Positions 42,512 through 46,249 of a stretch of DNA of 64,000 bases are shown piece after piece. The stretch lies in the NCBI RefSeq assembly GCF_009914755.1, contig NC_060927.1; one strand, 5' to 3'. The position numbers were made by a program, and so were the translations under genes. The DNA is from the human T2T-CHM13v2.0 reference genome, Homo sapiens. Position 1 is the first letter of the stretch. Each line of letters begins with the position of its first letter. Under the pieces are notes generated by a model that was not told where the DNA came from, did not search any database, and saw nothing but the letters and a program-made list of their open reading frames with translations.

Positions 42512-42816
42512 AGCTGGAAACCATCATTCTCAGCAAACTATCGCAAGGACAAAAAAGCAAACACCGCATGTTCTCCCTCATAGGTGGGAATTAAACAATG
42601 AGAACACATGGACACAGAGAGGGGAACATCACACACCGGGGCCTGTTGTGGGGTGGGGGTTGGGGGGGATAGTATTTGGAGATATACCTAATGTTAAATG
42701 ACCAGTTAATGGGTGCAGCACACCACCATGGCACATGTATACATATGTAACTAACCTGCACGTTGTGCACATGTACCCTAAAACTTAAAGTATAACAATA
42801 AAAAAAAAGAAAAAAA
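42512..42816 (+). mobile_element. L1PA (about L1PA4) 3' end with poly(A)
   Basis: agctggaaaccatcattctcagcaaactatcgcaaggac...gtaccctaaaacttaaagtataacaataaaaaaa. Confidence 0.97.
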
Positions 42817-42817
42817 T

Positions 42818-45800
42818 AGAATGATGGTTTCCAGCTTCATCCATGTCCCTACAAAGTACATGAACTCATACTTTTTTATGGCTGCATAGTATTCCATGGT
42901 GTATATGTGCCACATTTTCTTAATCCATTCTATCATCGGTGGGCATTTGGGTTGGTTCTAAGTCTTTGCTATTGTGAATAGTGCTGCAATAAACATACGT
43001 GTGCATGTCTCTTTATAGCAGCATGATCTCAGTAACGGGATCGCTGGGTCAAATGGTATTTCTAGTTCTAGATCCATGAGGAATTGCCACACTGTCTTCC
43101 ACAATGGTTGAACTAGTTTACAGTCCCACCAACAGTGTAAAAGTGTTCCTATTTCTCCACATCCTCTCCAGCACCTGTTGTTTCCTGACTTTTTAATGAT
43201 CGTCATTCTAACTGGTGTGAGATGGTATCTCATTGTGGTTTTGATTTGCATTTCTCTAATGGCCATTGATGATGATCATTTTTTCGTGTGTCTGTTGGCT
43301 GCATAAACGTCTTCTTCTGAGAAGTGTCTGTTCATATCCTTCGCCCACTTTTTGATGGGGTTGTTTGTTTTTTTCTTGGAAGTTTGTTTGAGTTCTTTGT
43401 AGATTCTTGATATTAGCCCTTTGTCAGATGAGTAGGTTGCAAAAATTTTCTCCCATTCTGTAGGTTGCCTGTTCACTCTGATGGTAGTTTCTTTTGCTGT
43501 GGAGAAGCTCTTTAGTTTAATTAGATCCCATTTGTCAATTTTGGCTTTTGTTGCCATTGCTTTTGGTGTTTTAGACATGAAGTCCTTGCCCATGCCTATG
43601 TCCTGAATGGTATTGCCTAGGTTTTCTTCTCGGGTTTTTATGGTTTTAGGTCTAACATTTAAGTCTTTAATGCATCTTGAATTAATTTTTGTATAAGGTG
43701 TAAGGAAGGGATCCAGTTTCAGCTTTCTACATATGGCTAGCCAGTTTTCCCTGCAGTATATATCAAATAGGGAATCCTTTCCTGATTTCTTGTTTTTCTC
43801 AGGTTTGTCAAAGATCAGATGGCTGTAGATGTGTGGCATTATTTCTGAGGGCTCTGTTCTGTTCCATTGATCTATATCTCTGTTTTGGTACCAGTACTGT
43901 GCTGTTTTGGTTACTGTAGCCTTGCAGTATAGTTTGAAGTCAGGTAGTGTGATGCCTCCAGCTTTGTTCTTTTGGCTTAGGATTGACTTGGCAATGCAGG
44001 CTCTTTTTTGGTTCCATGTGGACTTTCAAGTAGTTTTTTCCAATTCTGTGAAGAAAGTCATTGGTAGCTTGATGGGGATGGCATTGAATCTATAAATTAC
44101 CTTGGGCAGTGTGACCATTTTCATGATATTGATTCTTCCTATCCATGAGCATGGAATGTTCTTCCATTTGTTTGTATCCTCTTTTATTTCACTGAGCAGT
44201 GGTTTGTAGTTCTGCTTGAAGAGGTCCTTCACATCCCTTGTAAGTTAGATTCCTAGGTATTTTATTCTCTTTGAAGCAATTGTGAATGGGAGTTCACTCA
44301 TGATTTGGCTCTCTGTTTGTCTGTTGTTGGTGTATAAGAATGCTTGTGATTTTCGCACATTGATTTTGTGTCCTGAGACTTTGCTGAAGTTGCTTATCAG
44401 CTTAAGGAGATTTTGGGCTGAGACAATGGGGTTTTCTAGATATACAATTATGTCATCTGCAGACAGGTACAATTTGACTATCTCTTTTCCTAATTGAATA
44501 CCATTTATTTCCTTCTCCTGCCTGATTGCCCTGGCCAGAACTTCCAACACTATGTTGAATAGGAGTGGTGAGAGAGGGCATCCCTGTCTTGTGTCAGTTT
44601 TCAAAGGGAATGCTTCCAGTTTTTGCTCATTCAGTATGATATTGGCTGTGGGGGGTTTGTCATAAATAGTTCTTATTATTTTGAGATATGTCCCATCAAT
44701 ACCTAATTTATTGAGAGTTTTTAGCATAAAGGGCTGTTGAATTTTGTCAAAGGCCTTTTCTGCATCTATTGAGATAATCATGTGGTTTTTGTCTTTGGTT
44801 CTGTTTATATGCTGGATTATGTTTATTGATTTGAGTATGTTGAACCAGCCTTGCATCCCAGGGATGAAGCCCACTTGATCATGGTGGATAAGGCTTGCTG
44901 GATTCAGTTTGCCAGTATTTTATTGAGGATTTTTGCATCAATGTTCATCAGGGATACTGGTCTACAATTCTCTTTTTTTGTTGTGTCTCTGTCAGGCTTT
45001 GGTATCAGGATGATGCTGGCCTCATAAAATGAGTTAGGGAGGATTCCCTCTTTTTCTATTGATTGGAATAGTTTCAGAAGGAATGGTACCAGCTCCTCTT
45101 TGTACCTCTGGTAGAATTCAGCTGTGAATCCGTCTGGTCCTGGACATTTTTTGGTTGGTAAGGTATTAATTATTGCCTCAATTTCAGAGCCTGTTATTGG
45201 TCTATTCAGAGATTCAACTTCATCCTGGTTTAGTCTTGGGAGGGTGTATGTGTCGAGGAATTTATCCATGTCTTCTAGATTTTCTAGTTCATTTGCATAG
45301 AGGTGTTTATAGTATTCTCTGATGGTAGTTTGTATTTCTGTGGGATCAGTGGTGATATCCCCTTTATCATTTTTTATTGCATCTATTTGATTCTTCTCTC
45401 TTTTCTTATTTATTAGTCTTGCTAGTGGTCTATCAATTTTGTTGATCTTTTAAAAAAACCAGCTACTGGACTCTTTGATGTTTTGAAGGTTTTTTTTTTT
45501 GTCTCTATCTCCTTCAGTTCTCCTCTCATCTTAGTTATTTCTTGCCTTCTGCAAGCTTTTGAATGTGTTTGCTCTTGCTTCTCTCATTCTTTTAATTGTG
45601 ATGTTAGAGTGTCAATTTTAGATTTTTCCTGCTTTCTTTTGTGGGCATTTAGTGCTATAAATTTCCATCTACACACTGGTTTAAATGTGTCCCAGAGATT
45701 CTGGTATGTTGTGTCTTTGTTCTCATTGGTTTCAAAGAACATCTTTATTTCTGACTTTATTTCTTTATGTACCCGGTAGTCATTCAGGAGCAGGTTGTTC

Positions 45801-45874
45801 AGTTTCCATGTAGTTGAGCAGTTTTGAGTGAGTTTCTTAATCTTGAGTTCTAGTTTGAGTGCACTGTGGTCTGA
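42818..45874 (-). mobile_element. L1PA (about L1PA4) ORF2 segment, ~3.06 kb
   Basis: Near-consensus antisense L1; resumes at the L1 coordinate where the plus-strand piece starts; ends at gcactgtggtctga. Confidence 0.98.
42958..45874 (-). pseudogene. Disrupted L1 ORF2p (end of EN, Z domain, RT, Cys-rich domain)
   Basis: ORF fragments SDHSA.., [38 protein letters not shown] (canonical FADD changed to SADD), [18 protein letters not shown]; several frameshifts and stops. Confidence 0.95.
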
Positions 45875-46249
45875 CATTCTACTGGGGTTCTTTAAAGTGT
45901 TAGGTTAAAACTGTTCTCTATTACGCTCTGTTTATCCCAAATGAAAATACTATCTTGTAAATTTTATTTGTTTATTTGTCGAGTTTTCTAGTTTAAAAAC
46001 AAAGAAAAGTCTCCAAAATAAGATTTTAATCTCCAGTATGCTACTCCAATGTATTTAAACCTTTCTATTTGTGAACTGAATTCTTCTTTGGGTTTCATGG
46101 CAAACAGTACAAATTGTTGAATAACCTTAGACTTCTTTTCTTCTTTTCACATGATCTCTCTCACTCATTTCATATTGGCCAGAAATCAATGTATGTTAGG
46201 TGTTGATTTTATGGAAGTTTAAATGTTTTCCTAGTATTTCCTGTACCTG

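What the first reader, a model, noticed from the sequence alone, without database searches (positions are those of the whole stretch)
42512..45881. 'Inside-out' L1PA: internal poly(A), with the rest of the element inverted after it
Seen: a plus-strand L1 3' end (42512-42816) with poly(A) is followed by a 3.06-kb minus-strand L1 segment. That segment starts at the same L1 coordinate where the first piece begins. The 19-mer agctggaaaccatcattct (42512-42530) recurs as agaatgatggtttccagct (42818-42836). There is no TSD at the outer ends. The 7-mer tagaatg after the poly(A) (42817-42823) recurs inverted as cattcta just beyond the far end (45875-45881). Established: canonical twin priming gives TSD, inverted 5' piece, 3' piece, poly(A), TSD. 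The order here is a permutation of that. Inference A: one short target duplex (AAAAATAGAATG) primed cDNA from both 3' ends, at the poly(A) on one strand and internally at CATTCT on the other, and the product was end-joined into the gap. Inference B: a minus-strand L1 had its last ~305 bp flipped by staggered breaks. Inference C: a circularly permuted L1 cDNA integrated, then inverted between the 7-bp repeats.
Basis: partly seen in the sequence, partly recalled or inferred. Interest (0 to 1): 0.8.

Follow-up and report, generated by a model that had tools for sequence, protein, structure and literature searches.

The report
L1 repeat with flipped tail end
This is one old, dead L1 retrotransposon copy whose last 300 bases and poly(A) tail point the wrong way, most likely because a DNA end folded back on itself at or after insertion; it is a tidy curiosity, not a new kind of element.

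Summary
A plus-strand L1 3' end (42512-42799) with a 17-nt tail (42800-42816) abuts a 3,057-nt minus-strand L1 piece (42818-45874). The two pieces overlap by 19 nt of L1 sequence on 7 of 7 colinear copies. They are equally diverged, at 3.6-4.3% and 3.8% of non-CpG sites. There is no outer target-site duplication (TSD).

Best reading (about 0.5): if 42512-42823 is turned back, the element is an ordinary 5'-truncated minus-strand L1. It would have 3,326 nt plus a tail, flanked on both sides by CATTCTA, a hidden 7-bp TSD. The six bases next to the tail (AGAATG) pair with CATTCT about 300 nt upstream in the same strand. This fits a microhomology fold-back or template switch that inverted the 3' end, tail and one TSD copy, and left a 19-nt inverted duplication. 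A preprint describes such remodelling beside new L1 insertions.

An old repeat in the left flank stops exactly at the junction, which suggests loss of target DNA.

I could not fetch the ancestral empty site, so the choice between the readings stays open. Interest is low to moderate.

The parts
42399..42511 (+). Left flank. It is a fragment of an old, roughly 28-30% diverged LINE-like interspersed repeat, and it stops exactly at the L1 junction.
   Evidence: 72% match to a chr21 copy. A profile built from 30 genome copies matches window 42399-42512 at profile positions 774-893, E 7.9e-10. Nothing from profile positions 894 onward was found on the right flank.
42512..42799 (+). Piece A: the last 288 nt of the L1 body, in sense on the + strand (the flipped end).
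42512..42530 (+). 19-nt stretch of L1 that is present twice. Its reverse complement lies at 42818-42836.
   Evidence: pair I1, 100%. (19-nt overlap on 7 of 7 colinear copies).
42800..42816 (+). Internal tail, A9 G A7.
   Evidence: The same A-run, G, A-run look follows the L1 body in 16 of 37 related copies.
42817..42823 (+). TAGAATG. In my reading this is the turned-round copy of the 7-bp target-site duplication. Its last six bases are also the first six bases of piece B.
   Evidence: Other L1 copies match only from 42818 onward.
42818..45874 (-). Piece B: 3,057 nt of L1 body (ORF2 region) on the minus strand, 5'-truncated at 45874.
45875..45881 (+). CATTCTA, not L1. In my reading it is the unmoved copy of the 7-bp target-site duplication.
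45882..46700 (.). Right flank, single-copy sequence.
   Evidence: Only the self-match was found in the genome.

Best explanation
An L1 of the primate-specific L1PA group inserted once, in minus orientation, as an ordinary 5'-truncated copy. It had 3,326 nt of body and a tail of about 17 nt, flanked by a 7-bp target-site duplication, CATTCTA.

At the end of that integration or some time later, the DNA broke next to the tail. In the sense strand, the end reading ...A(n)TAGAATG-3' folded back. Its last six bases paired with CATTCT about 300 nt upstream in the same strand. An equivalent route is a nascent strand switching templates at this microhomology.

Priming or ligation from that fold-back, opening of the resulting hairpin 19 nt into its stem, and end joining to the left flank then gave the present order:
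- left flank,
- last 288 nt of L1 in sense,
- tail,
- TAGAATG,
- the rest of the L1 in antisense,
- CATTCTA.

The 19-nt inverted duplication is a by-product. Some target DNA on the left was probably lost.

Shown by the sequence: the anatomy, the equal age of the pieces, the 19-nt overlap, the 6-nt complementarity and the two 7-mers. Inferred: the order of steps, the break, and the timing.

The element has no function today. It is a scar of insertion and repair.
For: 1. Turning 42512-42823 back yields a colinear L1 flanked by CATTCTA on both sides. The chance of this 7-mer at one named site is about 1.2e-4.
2. CATTCTA is not L1 sequence, and the T at 42817 is not L1 either. Both are as expected of flank.
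3. The six bases after that T are complementary to the last six bases (42525-42530) of the 19-mer at the start of piece A. This gives a junction microhomology.
4. Both pieces have the same divergence from relatives: 10/275 and 12/277 against 53/1382 non-CpG sites. The cross-identities match too: copies chosen on B are 90.4-94.5% identical to A, and copies chosen on A are mostly 90-93% identical to B.
5. The two 19-mers are identical. At 3.6-3.8% divergence that happens only about 0.23-0.24 of the time if they date from the insertion. This leans mildly toward a later event.
6. Precedent: a bioRxiv preprint (10.1101/2024.12.14.628481; section 9 read in full) reports L1 insertions with local inversions or inverted duplications. 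It explains them by self-annealing of resected 3' overhangs at microhomologies of 2 to 14 bp. One case has the inversion on the reverse-transcribed end and includes the L1.
7. The old repeat in the left flank stops at the junction. This fits trimming of that end before joining.
Against: - The nick implied by this TSD (after CATTCTA, before CTGG, on the + strand) is not T-rich and does not resemble the L1 endonuclease motifs. A 7-bp TSD is also short. About 63% of germline L1 insertions have a canonical motif (passages of PMC12016303).
- A9-G-A7-TAGAATG looks like a tail followed by an A-rich target, as in 16 of 37 relatives. This suits the rival reading.
- A 6-bp stem closing a loop of about 320 nt is weak, and the 19-nt duplication needs an extra step (off-centre hairpin opening or a second switch point).
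- A 19-nt overlap is also typical of twin priming: median 12 bp, quartiles 4-17.
- No outgroup or second haplotype could be examined, so the pre-insertion sequence is unknown.
- The left junction shows at most 1 nt of exact microhomology, plus a 5-nt match that is 2 nt out of register (my reading).
Confidence: 0.5

Rival explanations
1. Back-to-back ('divergent') twin priming, the reader's inference A. L1 endonuclease nicked the bottom strand at the left edge of a 15-nt A-rich target (G A7 TAGAATG) and the top strand at its right edge.

The T-rich bottom end primed on the poly(A) and copied about 305 nt. The top end (...TAGAATG-3') paired with CAUUCU in the same RNA and copied about 3 kb.

The 15-bp island never melted. 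Each cDNA was therefore resolved outward, onto breaks in the flanks, instead of the two cDNAs joining each other. Flanking DNA was lost and no TSD formed.
For: - The two pieces overlap by 19 nt, within the overlap range reported for twin priming: median 12 bp, quartiles 4-17.
- There is 6-nt complementarity between the island's 3' end and the start of the inverted piece.
- The island has the length and A-rich start of an ordinary L1 target, and 16 of 37 relatives show the same tail-G-A-run look.
- There is no outer TSD, and the old repeat is cut at the left junction.
- A preprint reports twin-priming cDNAs used to repair other breaks (passages of 10.1101/2024.08.27.596794).
Against: - It leaves the CATTCTA just beyond the far end unexplained. 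With no deletion on the right, the target would have held a perfect 14-bp palindrome, at about 1.2e-4 for the second half.
- It needs four strand breaks and a 15-bp AT-rich duplex that stays paired.
- I found no description of this outcome in three literature searches or in the passages read.
Confidence: 0.25
2. A reverse-transcriptase template jump without a target island. One strand was made continuously. The polymerase copied the internally primed cDNA to its 5' end, added one untemplated base, and jumped to the poly(A) 3' end of the L1 RNA. It then ran off an RNase H-trimmed RNA remnant 19 nt past the internal start. A variant has the RNA 3' end priming on itself.
For: Only a single base (T at 42817) lies between the tail and L1 sequence. 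The 19-nt overlap could be a protected RNA remnant. This is inference only; no call tests it.
Against: The tail end has no complementarity to the L1 bases 3' of the internal start (my reading). The model leaves both the internal primer and the CATTCTA at the far end unexplained. No precedent was seen in the papers read.
Confidence: 0.07
3. One reading: a circularly permuted L1 cDNA integrated, and the 3-kb piece then inverted between the 7-bp repeats.
For: The present order is a cyclic permutation of a canonical twin-priming product. The 7-mers flank piece B in inverted orientation.
Against: It needs two separate rare events and a 7-bp repeat acting as a recombination substrate. The result adds nothing over the simpler readings.
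Confidence: 0.03
4. An assembly artefact, or two independent L1 insertions that lie side by side.
For: None from the calls.
Against: - The pieces overlap by exactly 19 nt and have equal divergence.
- The left flank lacks the rest of an older minus-strand L1 that a nested insertion would need.
- The window is from a telomere-to-telomere assembly, as stated in the task.
Confidence: 0.03

Closest known systems
Local inversion or inverted duplication beside an L1 insertion, produced by remodelling of ORF2p-made double-strand break ends (self-annealing of a resected 3' overhang). Source: bioRxiv 10.1101/2024.12.14.628481, section 9.
   Same: There is an inversion next to the reverse-transcription start point and microhomology at the inversion junction (6 nt here; 2 and 14 bp in their examples). 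A TSD-like overlap is present. The other junction is made by end joining with possible deletion. One of their cases inverts the L1-bearing end itself.
   Different: Their cases are somatic (tumours, cell clones) and mostly invert genomic DNA. Here the event is old and, to judge by about 4% divergence, in the germline. The inverted segment is only the L1's own last 288 nt, tail and TSD copy, with a 19-nt inverted duplication. The timing relative to insertion is unknown.
Canonical twin priming (5'-inverted L1). Ostertag and Kazazian 2001 is recalled and was not read. The mechanism is as described in PMC2837659 sections 10-11 and PMC12016303.
   Same: Two pieces of one L1 lie in opposite orientation with abutting or overlapping coordinates (19 nt). 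There is complementarity between non-L1 bases and the start of the inverted piece.
   Different: The order is permuted. The poly(A) is internal and abuts the 3'-most end of the inverted piece. Both outer junctions are 5'-truncation-type junctions, and no TSD flanks the whole.
Twin-priming variants: poly(T)-headed L1s and 'dual priming' (PMC2837659); 'twin priming and 5'/3' switching' (10.1101/2024.08.27.596794).
   Same: These are non-standard arrangements of a tail and an inverted L1 body that arise in one retrotransposition event.
   Different: In those the tail or T-run sits next to the 5'-most end of the other piece and TSDs flank the insertion. None of the passages read describes the tail abutting the 3'-most end of the inverted piece.
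Non-classical (endonuclease-independent) L1 insertion at double-strand breaks (PMC1920257).
   Same: There is no TSD at the outer ends and target DNA was probably deleted.
   Different: Those insertions are usually 3'-truncated and linear; only 2 of 21 loci showed internal rearrangement. Here the full 3' end and tail are present, and a 7-bp TSD appears once the end is turned back.
Short template-switch mutations and small in-place inversions at replication (recalled: Loytynoja and Goldman 2017; not read here).
   Same: A two-switch model with microhomology gives an in-place inversion with a short inverted duplication.
   Different: The recalled events are mostly tens of bases long. This one is about 330 bp and ends within 7 nt of an L1 tail.

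Membership tests
L1 (primate L1PA-type) retrotransposon copy | Sequence identity to other genomic L1 copies over the 3' end and the ORF2 region. | tested here: met
   Best hits are 93-94%, 92-93% and 95-96% identical, with 40 scored in each search.
L1 (primate L1PA-type) retrotransposon copy | Assignment to a named subfamily (L1PA3-6) by diagnostic positions. | not testable with these tools
   No subfamily reference library is on hand. The only measure is divergence from relatives of 3.6-4.3% at non-CpG sites. By a recalled rate this suggests roughly 20-25 million years.
Canonical twin-primed (5'-inverted) L1 | Two pieces in opposite orientation that abut or overlap in L1 coordinates. | tested here: met
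   19-nt overlap on 7 of 7 colinear copies.
Canonical twin-primed (5'-inverted) L1 | Order: TSD, inverted 5' piece, direct 3' piece, poly(A), TSD. | tested here: not met
   The poly(A) is internal (42800-42816) and the inverted piece follows it. There is no outer TSD.
L1 insertion with local inversion by break-end remodelling (self-annealing) | Microhomology at the inversion junction. | tested here: met
   AGAATG at 42818-42823 is complementary to 42525-42530.
L1 insertion with local inversion by break-end remodelling (self-annealing) | One inversion breakpoint lies close to the reverse-transcription start, with a TSD-like overlap. | tested here: met
   Only 7 nt of non-tail sequence lie between the tail and the junction. 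They are the reverse complement of the 7 nt beyond the L1 5' end.
L1 insertion with local inversion by break-end remodelling (self-annealing) | The event is coupled to the insertion itself rather than arising later. | not testable with these tools
   This needs orthologous loci in other primates. Identical 19-mers give only a mild lean toward a later date (P = 0.23-0.24 if coeval).
Ordinary endonuclease-dependent L1 insertion (the state before the flip) | T-rich endonuclease nick site at the tail-side TSD border. | tested here: not met
   The implied site, CATTCTA then CTGG, is not T-rich. The canonical motifs are listed in PMC12016303.
Non-classical (endonuclease-independent) L1 insertion | No TSD, target deletion, and often 3' truncation. 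| tested here: inconclusive
   There is no outer TSD. The old repeat is cut at the left junction, which suggests deletion. But the 3' end and tail are complete, and a 7-bp repeat appears after un-flipping.

The most novel reading that the evidence does not exclude
A so far undescribed outcome of target-primed reverse transcription. Both nicks of one L1 endonuclease target prime cDNA on the same RNA: one on the poly(A), the other on an internal site. The 15-bp target island between the nicks stays paired, so the two cDNAs grow away from each other. Each is then joined to a break further out, which deletes the flanks and leaves an 'inside-out' L1 with an internal tail and no TSD.
Probability: 0.22. 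Interest if true: 0.6.

Novelty: new member of a known kind. Interest (0 to 1): 0.3.

Why it matters
On its own the locus is a neutral scar in a gene-free region: no gene is annotated in the window, and the nearest lies more than 80 kb away.

Its value is as a clean, nucleotide-resolved germline example of an L1 whose own 3' end was inverted. Microhomology, an inverted duplication and a hidden TSD are all still readable.

If a genome-wide scan found many such cases, two things would follow. It would show how often L1 integration intermediates are remodelled in the germline, and not only in tumours. It would also give annotators a rule for merging such split, oppositely oriented L1 fragments into one insertion event.

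Tried and rejected
1. Rebuilding the pre-insertion site from the old repeat in the left flank.
- I built a profile from 30 genome copies.
- It finds the left flank (42399-42512) but nothing on the right flank or elsewhere nearby.
- Smith-Waterman of the right flank against the rest of the profile consensus scored 31, against 35.7 +/- 5.1 for shuffles.
- Alignment anchored at the junction, first 30 nt: 31 of 500 shuffles and 77 of 500 other windows reach the observed score. Longer spans do worse.
- Local search restricted to the next 167 profile positions: score 9, against 8.7 +/- 1.8.
- The 30 copies all run past the junction point, but they were chosen with a query that spanned it, so this is biased.
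- The central A-rich run could not be placed in the old repeat either.

2. Paralogous copies of the flanks. Only self-matches were found.

3. A second copy of the junction in the genome. None was found among 40 scored of 833 candidates.

4. Another example among the 29 related loci in hand. None has antisense L1 directly after its tail with abutting coordinates.

6. The Szak 2002 paper is not held, and Ostertag and Kazazian 2001 was not read (one search failed on term format).

7. A genome-wide scan for the same architecture was not possible.

Rejected readings:
- Nested insertion of a young L1 into an older minus-strand L1, because the rest of the older element is absent on the left.
- Recombination between two inverted L1 copies, because that keeps each copy colinear.
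Full report
**What is there**

- Unique or old-repeat flank, up to 42511.
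- Piece A, 42512-42799: the last 288 nt of an L1 body, in sense.
- A tail reading A9 G A7, 42800-42816.
- A single T, 42817.
- Piece B, 42818-45874: 3,057 nt of L1 in antisense, running from the region just upstream of piece A back into ORF2.
- CATTCTA, 45875-45881, followed by single-copy flank.

The 19 nt at 42512-42530 recur as a perfect reverse complement at 42818-42836 (pair I1).

I give no absolute L1 coordinates, because no reference element was available. Positions are counted from the tail.

**Both pieces are L1 and come from one element**

Identity to other genomic copies:
- Piece A is 93-94% identical to the best of 40 scored copies, out of 3,626 candidates.
- The first 1,000 nt of piece B are 92-93% identical, 40 scored of 8,348.
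- The last 275 nt of piece B are 95-96% identical, 40 scored of 2,203.

On 7 of 7 colinear copies that span the region, the end of B and the start of A overlap by exactly 19 nt.

To avoid selection bias I cross-compared:
- The 8 copies chosen for their match to B are 90.4-94.5% identical to A.
- Of the 29 copies chosen for their match to A, 12 hold at least 1,000 nt matching B, at 72-93% identity. The 72% value belongs to an unrelated older L1 nearby.

Counting non-CpG sites where the window differs from the majority of relatives:
- 10/275 for A, with 37 copies.
- 12/277 for A, with the 8 copies chosen on B.
- 53/1382 for B, with 10 copies chosen on A.

That is 3.6-4.3% against 3.8%, so the pieces have the same age and the same source. 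By a recalled substitution rate, not checked here, this corresponds to roughly 20-25 million years, in the range of middle L1PA subfamilies. No subfamily library was on hand to name one.

**Junctions**

- Right end: aligned with six other L1 copies, homology runs up to 45874 and stops. The next seven bases, CATTCTA, are not L1.
- Centre: other L1 copies match only from 42818 onward, so the T at 42817 is not L1.
- The 111-nt stretch across the centre is unique. Only the locus itself matched across it, 1 of 40 scored from 833 candidates.
- Outer TSD: the 40 nt to the left and the 40 nt to the right share no direct or inverted 6-mer. Random 40-mers from the window share one in 34.6% of 2,000 trials. 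There is no outer TSD.
- TAGAATG (42817-42823) is the reverse complement of CATTCTA (45875-45881). The 7-mer occurs 15 times on both strands of the 64-kb window, against 17.1 expected from shuffles. That is about 1.2e-4 per position and strand. Even allowing for tens of possible junction comparisons, the coincidence is unlikely and needs an explanation.

**Flanks**

The left flank, 42399-42512, belongs to an old interspersed repeat.
- It matches a chr21 copy at 72%.
- The genome holds at least 981 candidate copies, of which 40 were scored.
- The copies share one fixed end and vary at the other, as 5'-truncated LINEs do.
- A profile built from 30 copies matches the window up to the very last flank base, at profile positions 774-893.

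Nothing of the profile beyond that point is found on the right flank or anywhere near it (numbers are under Tried and rejected). The right flank is single-copy.

Either the old repeat happened to end within a base or two of the insertion point, or target DNA was lost on the left side. I take the second as more likely but not shown. The old copy is fragmentary in any case, since its own 3' part is not detectable either.

**Best explanation**

If 42512-42823 is turned back in place, the + strand reads:
- flank,
- CATTCTA,
- a T-run,
- antisense L1 from its 3' end right through to 45874,
- CATTCTA,
- flank.

This is an ordinary 5'-truncated minus-strand L1 of 3,326 nt (288 + 3,057 - 19) with a 17-nt tail and a 7-bp TSD.

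The six bases after the T (AGAATG) are complementary to CATTCT at 42525-42530, about 300 nt upstream in the same (sense) strand. I therefore propose these steps:
1. A strand end reading tail-TAGAATG-3' folded back on this microhomology, or a nascent strand switched templates there.
2. The end was extended or ligated.
3. The resulting hairpin was opened 19 nt into its stem. In the template-switch version, the first switch landed 19 nt beyond the second.
4. The end was joined to the left flank after some trimming.

Followed base by base, this reproduces the present sequence, including the single T and the 19-nt inverted duplication.

The steps themselves are inferred. What is shown is only that the sequence has the required microhomology, the duplication and the two 7-mers.

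**Precedent**

A preprint on L1-induced rearrangements (10.1101/2024.12.14.628481; passages, section 9 in full) reports the following, from cell clones and tumours:
- L1 insertions accompanied by short inversions or inverted duplications next to the integration site.
- An explanation by self-annealing of resected 3' overhangs at internal microhomologies (14 bp and 2 bp in their examples), followed by hairpin or flap cleavage and end joining.
- One case in which the inversion is on the reverse-transcribed end and includes the L1 itself.

Long-read population data class 15.7% of mobile-element insertions as non-canonical, and 52.8% of those have internal rearrangements (PMC12350158, passages).

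The present locus fits this known kind. It is an old germline example in which the inverted segment is the L1's own end.

**Timing is open**

The two 19-mers are identical. At 3.6-3.8% divergence that is expected only 0.23-0.24 of the time if they date from the insertion. This is a mild lean toward a later event.

Against a later event, the breakpoint lies within 7 nt of the tail. That is easier to understand if the break was the unsealed end of the integration itself.

**Weak points of the best explanation**

- The nick implied by the TSD (after CATTCTA, before CTGG) is not T-rich, and 7 bp is a short TSD. Canonical motifs are found at about 63% of germline L1 insertions (PMC12016303, passages), so this is unusual but not excluded.
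- The A9-G-A7-TAGAATG run looks like a tail followed by an A-rich target. 16 of 37 related copies show an A-run, a G, then more A directly after the L1 body.

**Main rival: back-to-back twin priming**

1. The 15 nt G-A7-TAGAATG are a piece of the original target.
2. Its bottom strand primed on the poly(A).
3. Its top strand primed on CAUUCU in the same RNA.
4. The island stayed paired, so both cDNAs were resolved outward.

The 19-nt overlap (twin-priming overlaps have median 12 bp and quartiles 4-17) and the 6-nt primer complementarity are then twin-priming hallmarks.

Cost of the rival:
- Four strand breaks.
- A stable 15-bp AT-rich duplex.
- A chance match of the next seven flank bases to the island's end, that is, a 14-bp palindrome in the target.

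The passages I read on twin-priming variants (PMC2837659 sections 9-11; 10.1101/2024.08.27.596794) describe other arrangements, not this one. Three literature searches listed no paper that names it. I read no supplements, and the 2001 twin-priming paper and Szak 2002 were not available to me, so I cannot say it is absent from print.

**Other readings**

These score low:
- A reverse-transcriptase template jump.
- A permuted cDNA plus a second inversion.
- Independent insertions.
- An assembly artefact.

**Verdict**

The structure is best seen as one L1 insertion whose 3' end was inverted by a microhomology fold-back.

My odds:
- About 0.5 for the fold-back family of mechanisms.
- About 0.25 for back-to-back twin priming.
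- The rest is spread over the other readings.

The orthologous site in other primates would settle it. That site, and a genome-wide count of the architecture, are the steps I could not run.

Noticed in passing
L076 (G000:C23:97780434-97780524): This L1 copy has a junction 13 nt upstream of where piece B is truncated. Antisense 3'-UTR-like sequence abuts sense ORF2 sequence, which looks like an ordinary twin-priming product with piece sizes similar to this locus. It could serve as a side-by-side comparator.
   Followed up: no
window 39867-39991 and 40357-40474 (minus) versus 42399-42512 (plus): Fragments of the same old LINE-like repeat family lie about 2 kb to the left in the opposite orientation, at profile positions 615-719 and 347-465. 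The left-flank fragment matches positions 774-893. This may be an ancient 5'-inverted copy or two separate copies.
   Followed up: no
loci L035-L072, first 30 nt after the L1 body: 16 of 37 related L1 copies show an A-run, a single G, then two or more A directly after the L1 body. The G may mark the start of the TSD (a TTTC-type nick) rather than a tail mutation. This bears on how tails are delimited in annotation.
   Followed up: partly
window 42818-43817: Related copies align to this 1,000-nt stretch over about 1,020 nt, so piece B carries a net deletion of about 20 nt relative to its relatives.
   Followed up: no
window 23797-26269: A further, separate copy of the old LINE-like repeat lies here on the plus strand, matching profile positions 356-667 and 1366-1703.
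   Followed up: no
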